Shown piece by piece: positions 4,121 to 57,102 of a stretch of DNA of 64,000 nucleotides. The notes under the pieces were generated by a model that was not told the origin of the DNA, ran no database searches, and saw only the letters and a program-made list of their open reading frames with translations. Source of the DNA: a virus (taxonomy: Duplodnaviria; Caudoviricetes); IMG/VR virus record IMGVR_UViG_3300025437_000009. One strand, written 5' to 3'. Position numbers and translations under genes: made by a program. Position 1 is the stretch's first letter. The number at the start of each line of letters is the position of its first letter.

Positions 4121-5986
4121 GTGTCTTATACAATTAACTTAACTAACGGATCATTATTATCAACTGTTTCTGATGGAACAATTGATATTACCAGTTCCAG
4201 TTTAACCTTAATTGGTAGAGACTATTCCGGCTACGGAGCTTTTTTAAACGAAAACTTTGTTAAAATGTTAGAGAATTTCTCTAATACATCAAGTCCACCC
4301 AGTCCCTTAAAAGGACAACTATGGTGGGATTCTACCAACAACGTCCTGCGTGTTTGGTCTGGTACAAGTTGGAAAATTTCAACCGGTGCAACATCGTCGG
4401 GTACAGCACCAACTGACCTAAGTGCCCTCGGTGGCGACTTATGGTTTGATACTATTAATCAACAGCTAAAAGTATATACTGGTACAGGATTCCTTGTAGT
4501 TGGTCCTCCGAGTACACCTGCTACGGGCAACACAGGAACATTCCCAGTTCTAATGACTGATACCAGTTCTGGTACACACGTAGTAATACAGTTTATCATT
4601 GCTGGTACCATTTACGCAGTATTTTCTAAAGATACATTTTCTACTACACTACCTGGGTTCACTAATATTGTACCAGGTCTTAATTTTAATTTATCTGTTG
4701 CCCAAACACTGGGATTGAATACTCAAAGTGCTAGCGCCTTACCTAGCACACTGGTATTGAGAGACAGCGCATCTGGAATTACTGGCGCGGCAATTAACGG
4801 TACAGTTGTTACAGCATCAACAGTTAATGCTGGATCACTCAACGGTACATTCAATGGAACTTTAAACGGAAACGTTTCAGCAACCACAGTCAGCGCAACA
4901 ACAATGACGTCCCAGGTATTTACAGCACTATCTGGATTTACTGGAACACTACTAACACCTAGTCAGACTAACATAACTGGACTAGGTAATATTACTAATT
5001 TAAATACTAACGGTACCACAACACTATCAGGTACTACTAACATAAATGGATCAGGCTACTACAACGGATCGCCTATTGCAACAATTGGTGGATCTGCATC
5101 GTTCTCGTCTATTAATAATACACCAATTGGCAATATTACACCAAGTACTGGTGCATTTACTACACTGGCAGGTACACTAACTACCGCGGTACAACCAAAT
5201 TTAACAACAGCACTGACTTTAGCTAATATCGGTACTGTTACAGCAGGAACATGGCATGCCAACGTTATTTCACCAACTTATGGTGGTACTGGCGTCAACA
5301 ATGGTTCTAACACACTGACCCTATCTGGTAGCTACACATTAAATCAAAGTGTTGCTAGCGGAGCAGCACCAACCCTAACCGGTACAAATTTTAGCAGTAT
5401 TCCAAACGGTGCATTAACTAACAACTCTATTACAGTTACAGCAGGTACAGGTTTAACTGGTGGCGGAACAGTCGCTCTAGGCGGTAGTGTAACTGTTAGT
5501 TTAGCCGGTTCCGGCGCAGTTACTAGTTTATCAGCTGGTACAGGAGTTTCCCTATCGGGATCAACTGGTGCTGTTACAGTTAGCATTGGACAAGCAGTTG
5601 GCACAGGTAATAGTCCAACTTTTGCTGGCCTAACAGTAAACGGATCAATAAACGCTACGGGCGATATTACATCCAATTATTCGGACGATCGATTAAAAAC
5701 ACGAGTCAGTAAGATTGACAATGCCCTGGATAAGGTGTTATCATTGACAGGATTCATATACGAACCAAACGAGATAGCACAAGGTTTGGGTTATGAAGTA
5801 CGTAGAGATGTTGGTATTAGTGCTCAAGATGCTAAACGTATTTTACCAGAACTTACTGCGCCGGCCCCGATTGATCCACAATACTTAACTGTTAAGTATG
5901 ATCGACTATCTGCACTATTGGTCGAAGCTATTAAAGAATTAAAAGGTCAAATTGACGACATAAAATCAATTTTAGCAACAAAATAA
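4121..5986 (+). CDS. Tail fibre protein with C-terminal intramolecular chaperone (peptidase S74-like)
   Basis: N-terminus paralogous to 2424..4094; C-terminal YSDDRLK...GISAQD..RILPEL..YLTVKYDRLSALLVEAIKEL; GTG start. Confidence 0.85.
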   Translation: MSYTINLTNGSLLSTVSDGTIDITSSSLTLIGRDYSGYGAFLNENFVKMLENFSNTSSPPSPLKGQLWWDSTNNVLRVWSGTSWKISTGATSSGTAPTDLSALGGDLWFDTINQQLKVYTGTGFLVVGPPSTPATGNTGTFPVLMTDTSSGTHVVIQFIIAGTIYAVFSKDTFSTTLPGFTNIVPGLNFNLSVAQTLGLNTQSASALPSTLVLRDSASGITGAAINGTVVTASTVNAGSLNGTFNGTLNGNVSATTVSATTMTSQVFTALSGFTGTLLTPSQTNITGLGNITNLNTNGTTTLSGTTNINGSGYYNGSPIATIGGSASFSSINNTPIGNITPSTGAFTTLAGTLTTAVQPNLTTALTLANIGTVTAGTWHANVISPTYGGTGVNNGSNTLTLSGSYTLNQSVASGAAPTLTGTNFSSIPNGALTNNSITVTAGTGLTGGGTVALGGSVTVSLAGSGAVTSLSAGTGVSLSGSTGAVTVSIGQAVGTGNSPTFAGLTVNGSINATGDITSNYSDDRLKTRVSKIDNALDKVLSLTGFIYEPNEIAQGLGYEVRRDVGISAQDAKRILPELTAPAPIDPQYLTVKYDRLSALLVEAIKELKGQIDDIKSILATK

Positions 5987-53030: not shown

Positions 53031-53254
53031 TTTTCAATATCCCGCAAACGAATACTTAAATCGCGAACATCGGTAATAAGTTGATTTTCGATCTTACTTA
53101 CAAGTTTTTTTAGTCGAGCGAGTCTGACGTGAGCATACACGATCGCAACAACTACGGCAGTAAAGGTCAATCCCCACCCAGCAATAATACCAACAATCCA
53201 AGACCAAAGGCCATTTACTTCACCAACTAAAGTTTGTATAGTTTGTGCTATCAT
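53027..53254 (-). CDS. Small membrane protein
   Basis: One hydrophobic segment plus a coiled coil. Confidence 0.6.
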   Translation of the reverse strand: MIAQTIQTLVGEVNGLWSWIVGIIAGWGLTFTAVVVAIVYAHVRLARLKKLVSKIENQLITDVRDLSIRLRDIEK

Positions 53255-53580
53255 GATCGTAATTTGCTCATAGTAATAATTTTGCCTAGTTCTCTATCAA
53301 AGTCGCTACCATCTGGGATAATGTATAACTCGCCGTTGTTATAATCATTTGTTTGCATCTGTATAATAGTGCCACCATTGGCTGGGGTAATTTTAATAGT
53401 CATTGTTTGACTAGACTGCGGTGCTTGTGCAACCCCATATCCAGCTGGATTAATATTAATAGTTCCTGGTGTGCCACCTAAGGTGTATGACATTGGTTTT
53501 TTATCTTTCTCTATTATAATTCTACCTGCCGCTAACCAGTTTAGTATACTGATGCGGAAATTCTTGAACCATAGCGTCAT
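53251..53580 (-). CDS. Hypothetical protein, paralog of 53577..53849
   Basis: PANGGTIIQ..YIIPDG.DFDRELGKIITMSKLRS. Confidence 0.65.
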   Translation of the reverse strand: MTLWFKNFRISILNWLAAGRIIIEKDKKPMSYTLGGTPGTININPAGYGVAQAPQSSQTMTIKITPANGGTIIQMQTNDYNNGELYIIPDGSDFDRELGKIITMSKLRS

Positions 53581-53849
53581 GAACGCAATAATTCCATGCT
53601 AACAATCTGACCAATACGTTCGCTAATATCTTCGCCGTCGGGGATAACGTGTGTGATATGATTGTTGCGATCAGTCTTGCGATCGTAGCAACGAATCTGT
53701 ACTACAGTTCCACCCTGTGCTGGCATAACATTAAATGACAAGCCTTCTACATCAACAGATCTAGAACCTACTACTACATCTTGCACAGGTTGACAGCTAT
53801 TCCAATCGTCACGAACCCATTTAACTACAATTTTCTTTAGCCATTTCAT
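53577..53849 (-). CDS. Hypothetical protein
   Basis: PAQGGTVVQ..HVIPDG.DISERIGQIVSMELLRS. Confidence 0.65.
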   Translation of the reverse strand: MKWLKKIVVKWVRDDWNSCQPVQDVVVGSRSVDVEGLSFNVMPAQGGTVVQIRCYDRKTDRNNHITHVIPDGEDISERIGQIVSMELLRS

Positions 53850-53947
53850 CTTGGAGCAAAGTCCTGTTGTAATTTGATATTGTCCATAAACTCTTTTTTG
53901 GTTCCTGGATCTGTGTTGAATGCACCTTTTAATACTGTGGTTTTCAT
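53846..53947 (-). pseudogene. Detached duplicate of the FolE C-terminus (33 aa ORF with its own RBS)
   Basis: MKTTVLKGAFNTDPGTKKEFMDNIKLQQDFAPR versus FolE end QTTVLRGAFLKDPATKKEFFDNIALQSRNGK; GGGAG-5nt-ATG. Confidence 0.8.
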
Positions 53948-53948
53948 A

Positions 53949-54071
53949 TCAACTCCCAAAAATGTATTTCACACAGGCCGCGATGATAGCAAATCTCATC
54001 AAGCCCAAAGTCCAGGTATTAGTCCAGAACTTTACTCGTTCCGCAAATTCATACTGTTCAAGAATGTTCAT
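53949..54071 (-). CDS. Small hypothetical protein (40 aa)
   Basis: MNILEQYEFAERVKFWTNTW...; translated by hand. Confidence 0.5.
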   Translation of the reverse strand: MNILEQYEFAERVKFWTNTWTLGLMRFAIIAACVKYIFGS

Positions 54072-54086
54072 TTTTCTTTGCCTCTC

Positions 54087-54266
54087 TTATTTAATATCCC
54101 AAATACCTTTTATGTGTTTAATAACTGTTTGACAGGATTTGACTAATTCTTTATTTGTTGGTGTGCATTGTTGTTCAAATTCAATAATGCCTTCCATTCG
54201 TTGAATAGCAAATTCATCCATAAAGTGTGTAAGGCTTGTATGTTTGTCGTAATGAATTGTTTTCAT
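54087..54266 (-). CDS. Small hypothetical protein (59 aa)
   Basis: MKTIHYDKHTSLTHFMDEF..., ATGA overlap with the upstream ORF. Confidence 0.5.
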   Translation of the reverse strand: MKTIHYDKHTSLTHFMDEFAIQRMEGIIEFEQQCTPTNKELVKSCQTVIKHIKGIWDIK

Positions 54267-54361
54267 TTCTCTTGTGCCTTTCTTATAATTGGTCTAAGCA
54301 TAAACACCCATACAGCGTGACTAACCCACCCAACAATGATACCCCAAACGAATGCGTTCAT
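54263..54361 (-). CDS. Small membrane peptide (32 aa)
   Basis: MNAFVWGIIVGWVSHAVWVFMLRPIIRKAQEK, GGAG RBS. Confidence 0.5.
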   Translation of the reverse strand: MNAFVWGIIVGWVSHAVWVFMLRPIIRKAQEK

Positions 54362-54457
54362 TCTTCAACTCCGAAATGTTTAATACCACTGTTTTTACAG
54401 CAACCAATTTTAACTTTAATCATAAATAAATTATACAGCAATCCTATAGGAAAGTCA

Positions 54458-55126
54458 ATGTTTTTAGATAACAAATATACTAAAGTTTATTACCAAATTA
54501 TTAATCGAGCATTAACACGACCATACAAAAAAGTAAAGAATGATGGATATCAAAAACATCATATTGTTCCAAAATGTATTGGAGGCACTGATTCTACTGA
54601 TAATCTTGTAATACTCAGTTATAAAGAACATAGAGTATGCCATTGTTTACTGATCAAAATGCAACTTACAAAATCAGCAGAAATCAAAATGCGACACGCC
54701 TACGGATTTTTTAATAAGAGTAGCAGATATAATGGGCCACGATATAAACGAGGGAAAGACAATATATTTTCTACTAAGGAAATCGTCGATCAAGTTCGTA
54801 AGCGTATGAAAGAAAACAATCCAATGAAGGATCCACTCTCTCAACAAAAAAGAGTCGATACCTGGAGAGCAAATAGAGCCGCACGAGATTACATTCCGCC
54901 GCGAGTCCTTAAGGACAAATTCATTACGCCAAGCGGCATTTTCAAAACCAAAAAAGAAATACAAAAAGTTGTAGGTATTCCAGAATGGACACTAAACACT
55001 ATCTACAACGATTTAGATGCTTACCCTGTTACAAACGGCAGGGCAAGCAAAAAAATCAATCACTTAAATATCGATCCAACAAAAACTTGGAGAGACAATG
55101 GGTTTGGATTACTTGCCGTTTCTTGA
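54458..55126 (+). mobile_element. Free-standing HNH homing endonuclease gene, antisense to folE
   Basis: KY...Y..II.RA...YQKHHIVPKCIGGTDSTDNLVILSYKEHRVCHCLL; TAAATA and an AGGA RBS upstream of ATG 54458. Confidence 0.85.
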
Positions 55127-55912
55127 TTGTAACGCAATATTGTCAAAGAATTCTTTTTTGGTAGCAGGATCTTTAAGGAATGCTCCGCGAAGAACAGTAG
55201 TTTGAGTCAAAGAGCTGTGTGCCATTATGCCCCTATTGGTGCAACAACCATGTTCACATTCTATATATACACCAATGTTATCGGAATCAGTGGCCTTGCT
55301 TATTTCACGTGCTATATCGTTACATAGCTCTTCTTGTAAAGTACCACGGCGAGCACACCATTGAGCAATGCGAGTATACTTGCTAAGACCAATAAGTTTG
55401 TTTGCGGCAATGATCCCAATATAAGCCACTCCACTAACTGGCTGATGATGATGGCTACACATACTACGAAGTTCAGAGCGTACAACCAACATACCCTCGT
55501 ATCTATCTTCACTGTCGTTTGGAAACGCTGTGGCGTCTGGTCTTGGTGCATATCTACCTTCCATAATTTCATTAAAATACATCTTGGCCAAGCGACGTGC
55601 TGTGCCTTGGCTATTTGGATCAGTTTCTCGATCGATTAATAGGGTATCTAGCACTTGCTCAAACGCTTCTGTAGCTTCATTAATAAGAATTTCTTTATCG
55701 CTTTCGCTTACATAATCACTGATATTGTCTCCAGCCCAGAAACGTTTCTTGTCACGCTTCATATTGAAACGGATAGCATCAGCAAGATTTGCTTCTTCAT
55801 ATCCTTTGTCGCTCATATTCATTGCGGCATCTTCATATCCAGGATGATATGGTGCTTCTTGTACTAGTAAATCTGCTATTTTTTGTTCTTCTGGTGATGC
55901 GTAGTTAGGCAT
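55109..55912 (-). CDS. folE: GTP cyclohydrolase I
   Basis: TARRLAKMY, SMCSHH, GLSKYTR, RGTLQEEL, EHGCCTNRG; start MPNYAS after a GGAG RBS. Confidence 0.95.
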   Translation of the reverse strand: MPNYASPEEQKIADLLVQEAPYHPGYEDAAMNMSDKGYEEANLADAIRFNMKRDKKRFWAGDNISDYVSESDKEILINEATEAFEQVLDTLLIDRETDPNSQGTARRLAKMYFNEIMEGRYAPRPDATAFPNDSEDRYEGMLVVRSELRSMCSHHHQPVSGVAYIGIIAANKLIGLSKYTRIAQWCARRGTLQEELCNDIAREISKATDSDNIGVYIECEHGCCTNRGIMAHSSLTQTTVLRGAFLKDPATKKEFFDNIALQSRNGK

Positions 55913-55952
55913 TCGTTTCTCCGAGTTAGTGTCGTGGATGACTTTATTGTAT

Positions 55953-55981
55953 ATTATAAGGTATTTAGATCTGTGTGTCAA
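55953..55981 (-). promoter_or_regulatory. sigma70-type promoter of folE
   Basis: Perfect TTGACA-N17-TATAAT. Confidence 0.85.
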
Positions 55982-56022
55982 ATATAATTAAATTTATTTG
56001 TCCATTAACGGTTAAATACAGA

Positions 56023-57102
56023 ATGAAACGAGCTGTACTCTGCGTACCCAATCCACAAGACTATATTGATCAATGCAACAATTATAGCATCATGATCATT
56101 AATCCTCAAGCACCTGTTGCTCGAAATCAATACCTATTGGCCAAAAGCGACTACAGTCTATTGATCACAGAACATGGTGTGGAAGAACGTGACGGGCAAG
56201 ACTACCCAAATGAACGTTTACTTTGGTATACTAGCGGAACTACAGGTGACAGTAAATTTTGCAGTTTTAGTCAGGAACAATTAGACATACTGGCACGTAA
56301 AATCTGCAACACTTATCAAATTACAGCCAATGATCGATATGTGAGTATTATGAGTCTATGGCACGCACACGGACAGGGCTTTTACTGGGCTACCCGACTA
56401 GCTGGTTGTGAAACTCATTTTTTATCAGTTGCAAATATTCGGCACATGCCAGAATTTGATCCCACATTTGTTACTGCTATACCCGATGTACTAAAGACTA
56501 TTGGACAGTTTGATTTTAAAAGCCTACGTTTCCTACGTGGTGCTAGTTCAGCTCTTCCTAATCAATTGTATCTTGATCTAAAACACAAATTTGGGGTTCC
56601 TGTAATAGAAGCATTTGGCATGACCGAAGCACTGAGTCACTGTTTTACTAACCCTTTAGATGGAGAACAGCGCATAGGTACTGTGGGACTACCAGATGGC
56701 ATAGAAGCTGATATAGTCGAAGGACGTTTATATATTAGTGGCGCTACTGTTTTTACTGATGGTTGGTACGATACCGGAGATCTAGCTGATAGAGATGAAC
56801 AAGGCTACTATCGTATACTAGGACGGCATCGTGATCAAATCAATGTTCGCGGGATTAAAGTAAATCCTATTAGTATTGAAAATCAATTAGTACACTCAAT
56901 TCCAACTATAGGTGACTGTGCAGTATTTGGCAGTGACAGTTTAAAGTGTATCTATACAGGAGATACTGATCCCGAGGTAGTTAGAAAATTTTTGATCAGT
57001 TTAGGACAACAATGCAAACCCATGCTACTACAACACGTGGCTCAAATACCAGTTAGTCCTTCGGGGAAGATTTCAAGGACTTGGCTCAATGGCCAATATT
57101 AA
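56023..57102 (+). CDS. Short ANL-family adenylating enzyme (acyl-CoA ligase-like)
   Basis: YTSGTTGDSK, EAFGMTE, YDTGDL, GR..D.I.VRG.KV.P..IE, C-terminal PSGKI. Confidence 0.88.
   Translation: MKRAVLCVPNPQDYIDQCNNYSIMIINPQAPVARNQYLLAKSDYSLLITEHGVEERDGQDYPNERLLWYTSGTTGDSKFCSFSQEQLDILARKICNTYQITANDRYVSIMSLWHAHGQGFYWATRLAGCETHFLSVANIRHMPEFDPTFVTAIPDVLKTIGQFDFKSLRFLRGASSALPNQLYLDLKHKFGVPVIEAFGMTEALSHCFTNPLDGEQRIGTVGLPDGIEADIVEGRLYISGATVFTDGWYDTGDLADRDEQGYYRILGRHRDQINVRGIKVNPISIENQLVHSIPTIGDCAVFGSDSLKCIYTGDTDPEVVRKFLISLGQQCKPMLLQHVAQIPVSPSGKISRTWLNGQY

What the first reader, a model, noticed from the sequence alone, without database searches (positions are those of the whole stretch)
53846..55126. 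folE 3' end duplicated around an HNH cassette; the orphan end has its own ATG and RBS
Seen: intact folE ends ...QTTVLRGAFLKDPATKKEFFDNIALQSRNGK. About 1.16 kb downstream, past an antisense HNH gene and three tiny ORFs, lies MKTTVLKGAFNTDPGTKKEFMDNIKLQQDFAPR, which keeps an ATGA overlap with the next gene. Inference: an intron-less homing cassette invaded folE, supplied a new (cleavage-resistant) 3' end and displaced the old one. The displaced end has a GGGAG RBS and no stop codons, so it may be kept for translational coupling, or the peptide may act on the FolE oligomer, whose C-terminal helices pack at the ring centre.
Basis: partly seen in the sequence, partly recalled or inferred. Interest (0 to 1): 0.65.

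Follow-up and report, generated by a model that had tools for sequence, protein, structure and literature searches.

The report
Homing endonuclease cassette replacing folE's end
A selfish DNA-cutting gene has inserted itself into a giant freshwater phage's folE gene at the codons for the enzyme's active site, bringing a spare copy of the gene's end so the enzyme still works and leaving the old end behind as a short, still-translated stub; this design is known from fungal mitochondria, and I found no description of it in phages.

Summary
The duplicate is 47 codons, not 33, and the window's orphan is in two pieces: 54405..54379 and 53947..53846.

I compared about 110 related folE loci from IMG/VR.
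- Every cassette-free allele carries the orphan-type end (..GCCENRG..KLQQ[DE]FAPR*).
- Every long duplicate sits beside an HNH gene or its footprint.
- Pairs of loci that are only about 70-80% identical across folE become 97-100% identical exactly from the GCC codons to the stop. So the replacement end travels with the HNH.
- Cassette-linked alleles never have GCCENRG. They have CC[TLVI]NRG or CVENRG instead.
- The new SRNGK* tail is the antisense of the HNH's own last codons.

The cassette also carries an outward sigma-70-like promoter, conserved across cassettes. Its right edge supplies a ribosome-binding site and an in-frame ATG, which keep the displaced end translated up to the ATGA overlap with the next gene. 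That gene has no ribosome-binding site of its own. Small cargo ORFs ride inside the cassette.

The orphan itself is resident DNA, renewed at each invasion, so its conservation does not show that the peptide has a function.

The closest known kind is the fungal mitochondrial mobile endonuclease ORF with a C-terminal duplication. I rate this a new variant of a known kind. Cleavage and translational coupling are inferred, not shown.

The parts
55953..55981 (-). folE's own sigma-70-like promoter (TTGACA-17-TATAAT). It implies that folE starts at ATG 55912, not at TTG 55981.
   Evidence: 12 of 12 consensus matches. Consensus match only; function not shown.
55256..55912 (-). Resident 5' part of folE (GTP cyclohydrolase I), up to the catalytic His codon.
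   Evidence: Pfam hit. Its nearest relative over the 450 nt upstream of the GCC codons is cassette-free L005, at 81%. It aligns to E. coli FolE structures.
55109..55255 (-). Cassette-borne replacement 3' end of folE (EH GCCTNRG ... ALQSRNGK*). The GCC codons start at 55249. The last 18 nt overlap the HNH 3' end in antisense.
   Evidence: It is 100% identical to L001 from GAACAT|GGT to the stop, against about 75% upstream. GCCTNRG stands in place of the GCCENRG of all 71 free alleles. The tail is read from the HNH antisense strand.
54458..55126 (+). Free-standing HNH homing endonuclease, Mob-like, 222 aa, with an intact HNH motif (GYQKHHIVPKCIGGTDSTDNLVILSYKEH).
   Evidence: PHROG 655 at 9e-23. 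Weak Pfam HNH hit. Motif alignment. Best cultured-phage hits are annotated homing endonucleases or MobE, at 27-40%. L052 carries an 87% identical copy in the same place.
54430..54458 (-). Outward promoter of the cassette (TTGACT-17-TATAAT), in the folE sense. Its -35 box overlaps the HNH start codon.
   Evidence: 11 of 12 matches. The same element stands at the same place in 15 of 24 distinct cassettes, against 126 of 5000 control windows. Activity not shown.
54358..54423 (-). Leader mini-ORF MIKVKIGCCKNSGIKHFGVEE*. It contains orphan piece 1 (GCCKNSGIK, 54405..54379) and the HFGVEE* linker (54378..54358), whose stop overlaps the ATG of the next ORF.
   Evidence: In L083-85 the same leader runs in frame into an uninterrupted GCCENSGIMAHSSLTQTTVL...* orphan. 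The linker occurs once in the window, with 0 expected by chance.
54263..54361 (-). Cargo ORF t32, a small hydrophobic protein.
   Evidence: A 74% identical copy lies at the same position in L104.
54087..54266 (-). Cargo ORF t59, function unknown. It is absent from L104.
   Evidence: A 92% identical copy lies in a different context in L113. No family match.
53949..54071 (-). Cargo ORF t40, with a hydrophobic C-terminus. Its 3' end supplies the GGGAG ribosome-binding site and the ATG for the orphan.
   Evidence: About 97% nt identical to L104 up to the orphan's ATG, after which identity falls to about 80%.
53846..53947 (-). Orphan piece 2: the displaced resident folE end (MK + TTVLKGAF...KLQQDFAPR*). 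Its stop overlaps the ATG of d90.
   Evidence: It is contiguous with d90 at 87% identity to cassette-free L005. It has the same amino acids as the end of free allele L008.
53577..53849 (-). d90, the resident downstream gene. It starts inside AGATGA and has no Shine-Dalgarno sequence of its own.
   Evidence: The same stop/start overlap with folE occurs in cassette-free loci L005 and L003.

Best explanation
This is a free-standing, Mob-like HNH homing-endonuclease cassette. It sits in the folE gene (GTP cyclohydrolase I, part of the 7-deazaguanine pathway) of an uncultured freshwater jumbo phage.

Insertion site: between the codons for the catalytic His and the zinc-binding Cys (..EH|GCCENRG..).

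The mobile unit, read in the folE sense, has five parts:
1. A diverged copy of the last 46 codons of folE, which keeps the enzyme whole. Substitutions around the junction probably make this allele uncuttable.
2. The HNH gene on the opposite strand. Its last codons, read in antisense, provide folE's new tail, SRNGK*.
3. An outward sigma-70-like promoter.
4. A slot of small cargo ORFs.
5. A right edge that supplies a Shine-Dalgarno sequence and an ATG, fused in frame to the resident folE end that the cassette displaces.

The displaced end (the orphan) is resident DNA. It probably has two roles. It is the downstream homology arm during homing. It is also a translated spacer that carries ribosomes to the ATGA stop/start overlap, on which the next gene depends.

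Shown here: the anatomy, presence/absence polymorphism, block transfer with sharp breakpoints, allele-specific junction substitutions, and the conservation of the promoter and the in-frame starts.

Inferred: cleavage of the GCCENRG allele, resistance of the cassette's own allele, promoter activity, and translational coupling.
For: (1) Empty site.
- 71 of 71 cassette-free folE alleles end ..GCCENRGIMAHSSLTQTTVL..KLQQ[DE]FAPR*, like the orphan, and none has a duplicate.
- L005 is syntenic on both sides: up375-folE-d90-d117-d75.

(2) Linkage.
- All 14 distinct loci with an orphan of 25 or more codons carry an HNH or its footprint.
- Of the 32 HNH loci found in IMG/VR, 30 show the HNH (or its fragment) convergent at the folE 3' end. 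In L100 and L111 no folE was in range.

(3) Block transfer. The following pairs are 53-93% identical per 30-nt window (mostly about 70-80%) upstream, then 97-100% identical from about 6-25 nt before the GCC codons to the stop or beyond:
- the window against L001
- L013 against L083
- L088 against L083

(4) Patchy distribution. On a tree of the 450 nt upstream of the GCC codons, cassette alleles need at least 14 changes of state; 5 are forced by well-supported branches.

(5) Junction substitutions.
- Free alleles always have CCENRG.
- SRNGK- and KGVY-tailed alleles have CC[TLVI]NRG or CVENRG.
- A second HNH class (ESNKR-tailed alleles) keeps CCENRG but has AHDSSTTTTV.
- Position -12 is C in 64 of 64 free alleles and G in 14 of 15 cassette alleles.

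(6) Decay series expected of a homing-endonuclease life cycle:
- HNH ORF deleted, footprints kept: L063, L065, L013, L001.
- Only the resistant tail left: L007.

(7) Outward promoter at the same place in 15 of 24 cassettes, against 2.5% of control windows.

(8) In-frame starts.
- 13 of 14 distinct long orphans begin with an in-frame ATG created at the junction, in at least 5 different ways.
- Shortened orphans in L052 and L100/L101 are also fused in frame to an ATG.
- Most end in AGATGA or TAATG, overlapping the start of whatever gene follows.

(9) Between the window and L104, t40 is about 97% identical, the orphan about 80%, and the downstream gene is unrelated. So the cargo and the start signals are mobile and the orphan is resident.

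(10) There is no intron or other Rfam RNA family in the region.
Against: - No enzyme activity, cut site or homing event has been observed. The target is inferred from sequence patterns alone.
- The relatives are metagenome-assembled contigs, many from similar lake samples. Some are near-duplicates, so the counts are not independent.
- Some cassettes keep an intact GCCENRG stretch in orphan piece 1 (L086, L087). The recognition site must therefore extend upstream of the junction. This is assumed, not shown.
- Two loci (L092, L094) have the orphan out of frame with the nearest ATG, and several have lost it. Coupling through the orphan is therefore not obligatory.
- The overall number of promoter-like hits in this region is no higher than in shuffled sequence. 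The case for the promoter rests on its positional conservation.
Confidence: 0.85

Rival explanations
1. The orphan is kept because its 33-aa peptide has a function of its own. It could bind the FolE decamer, whose C-terminal segments pack in the ring, or poison a competitor phage's FolE.
For: - An in-frame ATG and a ribosome-binding site are present in 13 of 14 distinct orphans.
- No orphan has a stop or a frameshift.
- pN/pS is 0.18, the same as for functional folE ends at 0.16.
Against: - The orphan is resident DNA freshly displaced at each invasion. The window's orphan is about 80% identical to L104's, while the adjacent cargo is about 97% identical. The orphan plus d90 is colinear with cassette-free L005. 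Its conservation is therefore inherited from a working folE.
- Orphans are cut down to 9-17 codons in L052, L091, L094, L095, L099, L100/L101, L109 and L112. In L102 the orphan is gone.
- L092 has it out of frame with the nearest ATG.
- pS is saturated at about 0.7, so the test has little power.
Confidence: 0.06
2. The orphan is only the downstream homology arm, or a passive leftover, of homing. Its start codon and its overlap with the next gene are incidental and have no role in expression.
For: - The break in identity lies exactly at the orphan's 5' edge.
- Downstream genes differ between loci while the orphan is always folE-like. A universal 100-140 nt arm would let the cassette enter any folE-bearing phage.
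- Mitochondrial native C-termini are often untranscribed relics (PMC3630166).
Against: - In-frame ATGs were created independently in several different junction types. Even very short remnants are fused in frame to an ATG and still run into the ATGA (L052, L100/L101).
- The one locus that lost the remnant entirely (L102) has an AAAGGA ribosome-binding site before the downstream gene.
- d90 has no Shine-Dalgarno sequence of its own.
- The two roles do not exclude each other.
Confidence: 0.25
3. The duplicate arose by an ordinary tandem duplication or unequal crossover at folE, or by insertion of the small-ORF cargo. The HNH came later, by chance, and does not move the replacement end.
For: - L013 has a duplicate and cargo but no HNH ORF.
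- L104 and L107 have a standard-type tail on the full-length folE.
Against: - L013 keeps the HNH-encoded tail and a footprint of the HNH 3' end.
- 0 of 71 cassette-free loci have a duplicate.
- The replacement end and the HNH are co-transferred as a 97-100% identical block with a common left edge in several pairs.
- The leader and the GCC remnant lie at a fixed distance from the HNH start in 18 of 24 cassettes.
Confidence: 0.04

Closest known systems
Mitochondrial mobile endonuclease ORFs (mORFs) with a C-terminal duplication: Allomyces macrogynus atp6; Glomus atp6, atp9, cox2 and nad3; Rhizopus atp9; Mortierella cox2 (as described in PMC3630166)
   Same: - An endonuclease ORF is inserted in the 3' part of a conserved gene.
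- It brings a foreign, diverged C-terminal copy that is in frame with the resident 5' part.
- The native C-terminus is left downstream.
- The native end matches close relatives, while the inserted end does not.
   Different: - The host is a phage, not an organelle.
- The nuclease is HNH (Mob-like), not LAGLIDADG or GIY-YIG.
- The nuclease gene lies antisense and overlaps the host gene's new stop, rather than being in phase with it.
- The element carries an outward promoter, a ribosome-binding site and ATG adaptor that keeps the displaced end translated, and a cargo slot.
- In Glomus, the native atp6 and cox2 ends were not expressed.
Free-standing HNH (mob) and GIY-YIG (seg) homing endonucleases of T4-like phages, which move by intronless homing (review PMC2988022; mobE in PMC2790892)
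   Same: - A Mob-like N-terminal HNH domain.
- Sporadic presence among syntenic phages.
- Co-conversion of flanking DNA.
- A target in a conserved nucleotide-metabolism gene.
- Promoters for downstream genes embedded in the cassette; the review describes this for segG and gene 32.
   Different: - According to that review, the T4-type elements sit between genes, or split a gene into two polypeptides (mobE in Aeh1 nrdA, mobA in gene 60).
- This element instead sits inside the coding region and repairs the gene with its own replacement 3' end.
- I found no phage example of this in the papers searched.
Group I intron- or intein-borne homing endonucleases
   Same: They follow the same logic of limiting damage to an invaded essential or conserved gene at a highly conserved active-site sequence.
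   Different: There is no splicing element. No Rfam match was found, and folE reads straight through. The damage is repaired at the DNA level by a duplicated gene end, not by RNA or protein splicing.

Membership tests
Free-standing HNH (Mob-like) homing endonuclease | HNH catalytic motif present and intact | tested here: met
   GYQKHHIVPKCIGGTDSTDNLVILSYKEH aligns to HNH domains. The Pfam HNH hit is below its cut-off (17.9 against 21.4 bits). PHROG 655 matches at 9e-23.
Free-standing HNH (Mob-like) homing endonuclease | Homology to annotated phage homing endonucleases | tested here: met
   tblastn hits to 1080 phage records, the best annotated as homing endonuclease or MobE, at 27-40% identity.
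Free-standing HNH (Mob-like) homing endonuclease | Presence/absence polymorphism at a fixed site among related genomes, not inside an intron or intein | tested here: met
   71 free loci against about 30 cassette loci, all at the same GCC junction. No Rfam intron. Scattered on the folE tree.
Free-standing HNH (Mob-like) homing endonuclease | Co-conversion or block transfer of flanking DNA together with the nuclease gene | tested here: met
   Sharp switch from about 70-80% to 97-100% identity at the junction in three independent pairs.
Free-standing HNH (Mob-like) homing endonuclease | The enzyme cleaves the cassette-free allele and spares its own | not testable with these tools
   Only indirect evidence: fixed junction differences between free and cassette alleles.
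Mobile endonuclease ORF with C-terminal replacement (mitochondrial mORF type) | Inserted C-terminal copy in frame with the resident 5' part, giving a full-length hybrid gene | tested here: met
   folE is a continuous ORF, and Pfam covers it to residue 282 of 290. It aligns with solved FolE structures through the junction.
Mobile endonuclease ORF with C-terminal replacement (mitochondrial mORF type) | Native C-terminus displaced downstream of the endonuclease ORF | tested here: met
   Orphan pieces at 54405..54379 and 53947..53846.
Mobile endonuclease ORF with C-terminal replacement (mitochondrial mORF type) | The native end resembles the ends of close relatives more than the inserted end does | tested here: met
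   The orphan is 89% nt identical to free L008 over 31 codons, with identical amino acids. Over the 26 residues where they align, the orphan and the window's own replacement end are 73% identical. The orphan plus d90 is 87% identical to L005.
Mobile endonuclease ORF with C-terminal replacement (mitochondrial mORF type) | Endonuclease of the LAGLIDADG or GIY-YIG family, usually in phase with the host gene, in an organelle genome | tested here: not met
   Here the nuclease is HNH, lies antisense, and sits in a phage. So it works like an mORF but is not a member of those lineages.
Group I intron with homing endonuclease | Self-splicing intron RNA around the nuclease ORF | tested here: not met
   No Rfam match at E up to 1 in 53500..56100. 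folE has its own stop before the HNH gene.

The most novel reading that the evidence does not exclude
The translated orphan is more than a spacer. It would be a 33-residue FolE C-terminal mimic, made from the cassette's own promoter and start signals, that enters or caps FolE rings. It could tune the phage's deazaguanine supply or disable the FolE of a co-infecting cassette-free competitor, giving the element a second, protein-level way to win mixed infections.
Probability: 0.06. Interest if true: 0.8.

Novelty: new variant of a known kind. Interest (0 to 1): 0.58.

Why it matters
Phage homing endonucleases are thought to avoid killing their host in one of three ways: sitting between genes, hiding in introns or inteins, or splitting a gene into two working halves. 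This locus, with about 30 relatives, shows a fourth way in phages. The element cuts at the active-site codons of a conserved enzyme gene and repairs the damage with its own spare gene end.

It also appears to repair the damage to gene expression. It brings a promoter and an in-frame start, so that ribosomes still reach the stop/start overlap that feeds the next gene. And it has a slot in which small genes hitch-hike between phages.

This gives a natural, well-sampled system, with several nuclease lineages, matching resistant alleles, decay stages and one serial invasion. It could be used to study how homing elements pick targets, how co-conversion tracts end, and how accessory genes spread among uncultured jumbo phages. 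The short target and the matching resistant alleles are directly testable in vitro.

Tried and rejected
- Nucleotide search of the locus against cultured phages found nothing. The best cultured FolE relative is only 59% identical, so all comparisons rest on IMG/VR contigs.
- No whole genome is held for the window, so I could not look for paralogous cassettes elsewhere. Within the 64-kb window there is only one HNH copy.
- I first read the cassette as a simple insertion six codons before the folE stop, flanked by a 12-nt direct repeat, as in L052. I rejected this once L083-85 showed the leader running into a complete GCCENSGIMAH... orphan. L052 is better read as a deletion derivative, formed through ATYAAAC microhomology.
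- I used pN/pS of the orphans to test for peptide function. It cannot discriminate, because the orphans are freshly displaced resident DNA and synonymous sites are saturated.
- My first comparison of end classes silently dropped the standard alleles, which are one codon longer. I used only its nearest-neighbour lines.
- I suspected that the HFGVEE* linker flanks the three cargo ORFs as a direct repeat. Only one copy is found at up to 3 mismatches. The second, before the orphan, matches only in blocks (ACATTT / GGAGTTGA / ATGAA), so this stays a weak suggestion.
- Pfam, PHROG and Atlas searches gave no function for t32, t59, t40, d90, d109 or the 99-aa cargo family.
- An intron was excluded.
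- Literature searches found no report of a homing endonuclease in phage folE, or of 3'-end replacement in phages. The library lacks most subscription journals, so this is not proof of absence.
Full report
**What is in the window.**
All neighbouring genes run on the minus strand. In order:
- folE at 55981/55912..55109 (Pfam GTP_cyclohydroI, 8.6e-39).
- An HNH ORF on the plus strand at 54458..55126. It overlaps the folE stop by 18 nt.
- Three small ORFs: t32 (54361..54263), t59 (54266..54087) and t40 (54071..53949).
- A 33-codon ORF at 53947..53846 that repeats the folE C-terminus.
- d90 at 53849..53577, whose ATG lies inside the orphan's AGATGA.

The two folE ends match at tblastn E = 4e-7 within the window. 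The HNH protein matches PHROG 655 'homing endonuclease' at 9e-23. It has an intact HNH motif and resembles MobE-type enzymes of cultured phages at 27-40% identity. No RNA family, and so no intron, is detected. Earlier notes of this scan place the window in an uncultured freshwater jumbo phage with a 7-deazaguanine pathway. I did not re-test that, beyond a QueD-like Pfam hit.

**Relatives.**
Cultured phages hold nothing close. IMG/VR holds more than 595 folE relatives, of which 80 were returned (L001-L080). A scan with the HNH protein gave 32 more loci (L081-L112).
- In 71 cassette-free loci, folE ends ..HGCCENRGIMAHSSLTQTTVL..KLQQ[DE]FAPR*. This is the orphan's sequence.
- The window's orphan has the same amino acids as the end of free allele L008, with 10 synonymous and 0 non-synonymous differences.
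- L005 is a syntenic empty site. It has the same upstream gene, then folE running straight into d90, then d117 and d75. Its folE aligns to the window's folE up to 55217, and then to the orphan plus d90 at 87%.

**The duplicate is longer than reported, and it belongs to the cassette.**
In L083-85, the short leader after the HNH start (ATGATAAAAATTAAAATT) runs in frame into a complete GCCENSGIMAHSSLTQTTVLKGAF...* orphan. The window has the same leader and then GCCKNSGIK (54405..54379). The rest of the orphan follows only after the three small ORFs. So the displaced end starts at the GCC codons, 47 codons from the stop, and the cargo lies inside it.

A remnant GGNTGYTGY stands at a fixed distance from the HNH start in 18 of 24 distinct cassettes. 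All 14 distinct loci with a long orphan have an HNH or its footprint, and no free locus has a duplicate.

**The replacement end moves with the HNH.**
In 30-nt windows, the window and L001 are 57-87% identical along folE. They become 100% identical from GAACAT|GGTTGTTGC to the stop. L013 against L083, and L088 against L083, show the same switch at the same place. On a tree of the 450 nt upstream of the junction, cassette-bearing alleles are scattered: at least 14 changes of state are needed, 5 of them forced by strongly supported branches. The window's nearest neighbour on that tree is cassette-free L005. This is the signature of repeated lateral spread with short co-conversion tracts.

**Target and immunity (inferred).**
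- Against E. coli FolE, the junction falls in ..VH|YCVKARG... From memory, these are the catalytic His179 and the zinc ligand Cys181.
- All free alleles have CCENRG.
- All 24 SRNGK-tailed and 4 KGVY-tailed cassette alleles have CC[TLVI]NRG or CVENRG.
- A second HNH class, with a different C-terminal domain, is linked to alleles that keep CCENRG but read AHDSSTTTTV.
- Upstream, position -12 is C in 64 of 64 distinct free alleles and G in 14 of 15 cassette alleles.
- Because L086 and L087 keep GCCENRG in the orphan remnant, the recognition site must span the junction. Insertion disrupts it there, as in classical homing.
- The replacement residues (T, L, V, I) are of the kind E. coli has nearby (VKA), so the enzyme's function is probably kept.

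**The new tail.**
SRNGK* is not a foreign FolE end. It is the antisense reading of the HNH's last codons (..LLAVS*). The class-B tail ..QESNKR* likewise overlaps ..YRLLDS*.

**Decay series.**
- L063 and L065 have lost the HNH ORF but keep both flanks.
- L013 keeps the tail, a 26-nt footprint, the cargo and the orphan.
- L001 keeps the tail and 13 nt of footprint.
- L007 keeps only the tail.
- L052 (HNH 87% identical) has the leader fused to the last nine orphan codons. This is best explained by a deletion through ATYAAAC microhomology.

**Expression module.**
A TTGACT-17-TATAAT element, in the folE sense, overlaps the HNH start at 54458..54430. An equivalent element stands at the same place in 15 of 24 distinct cassettes, against 2.5% of control windows.

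From it runs a chain of stop/start-linked ORFs: leader mini-ORF, t32, t59, t40, orphan, d90, d109, d75, d117. Evidence bearing on translational coupling:
- d90 has no Shine-Dalgarno sequence.
- In free loci its ATG, or that of whatever gene follows, already overlaps the folE stop.
- 13 of 14 distinct long orphans start with an in-frame ATG made at the junction, in at least five different ways.
- Short remnants in L052 and L100/L101 are also fused in frame to an ATG.
- L102, which lost the remnant, has an AAAGGA ribosome-binding site instead.
- L092 and L094 are exceptions.

**Who owns the orphan.**
Between the window and L104, t40 and the GGAGTTGATATG start signal are about 97% identical. The orphan is about 80% identical, and the downstream genes are unrelated. 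The cargo and start signals are therefore mobile, and the orphan is resident DNA, displaced afresh. This explains why orphans look as constrained as working ends (pN/pS 0.18 against 0.16), without any need for a peptide function. It also fits a role as the right-hand homology arm.

**Comparison with known systems.**
- The architecture equals the mitochondrial mORF 'gene hybrids' with a C-terminal duplication (PMC3630166). It differs in nuclease family, orientation and host, and in having the expression adaptor and the cargo slot.
- The T4 literature describes intergenic and gene-splitting free-standing endonucleases, and promoters embedded in the cassettes. It does not describe 3'-end replacement (PMC2988022).
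- I found no paper on a homing endonuclease in phage folE.

**Verdict.**
Among their ideas for the orphan, coupling and homology arm are favoured, and the peptide idea is unsupported. I rate it a new variant of a known kind, of moderate to good interest. All biochemical steps remain inferred.

Noticed in passing
L113:94-1630 and window 54263..54284: A homologue of t59 (92% aa) lies in an unrelated contig, among small ORFs separated by a repeated stop/start linker of about 25 nt, AAGAAAGGCACAAGAGAAATGA. L113 has five copies within 1.6 kb. The same linker joins t32 to t59 in the window, where it occurs only once. It looks like a conserved junction used to shuffle small gene cassettes.
   Followed up: partly
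window 54358..54378; L013, L082, L086-L088, L093, L106: A 21-nt linker, CATTTCGGAGTTGAAGAATGA, encodes ..HFGVEE* and supplies a GGAG ribosome-binding site and an ATGA overlap. It ends a widespread 80-100 aa phage ORF family of unknown function (Atlas clusters of up to 1662 members). In those loci it always feeds into the orphan's ATG. In the window it feeds into t32 instead.
   Followed up: partly
L082 (orphan after the HNH; folE-sense coordinates 5073-5168): The orphan of L082 ends ..DTLSLQESNKR*. This is the tail otherwise made by read-through into the antisense of the class-B HNH. A folE already converted by one nuclease lineage therefore seems to have been invaded later by another.
   Followed up: partly
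L104 and L107: Two cassettes with class-B-like HNH genes have a standard-type tail (..KLQQDFAPR*, ..KLQQDFSLR*) on the full-length folE and still carry a long orphan. Their junction alleles differ from free alleles at other positions (QHGCC; QTSV or MATSS).
   Followed up: no
window 53251..53849: d90 and d109 are tandem paralogues, 36% identical over 56 residues. They are linked by ATGA overlaps, and homologues lie near folE in many relatives. No family match was found.
   Followed up: no
window 55953..55981: A perfect TTGACA-17-TATAAT lies at the listed TTG start of folE. The real start is therefore probably ATG 55912 (MPNYASPEEQ..).
   Followed up: no
window 54379..54423: Orphan piece 1, which is half of the presumed target site, lies in the region upstream of the HNH gene, where a weak plus-strand promoter-like site is predicted (54394..54423). 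In T4, intron endonucleases repress themselves at operator sites that resemble their homing site. Separately, the -10 box of the outward promoter ends 6 nt before the leader ATG, so that mRNA may be leaderless. Both points are untested ideas.
   Followed up: no
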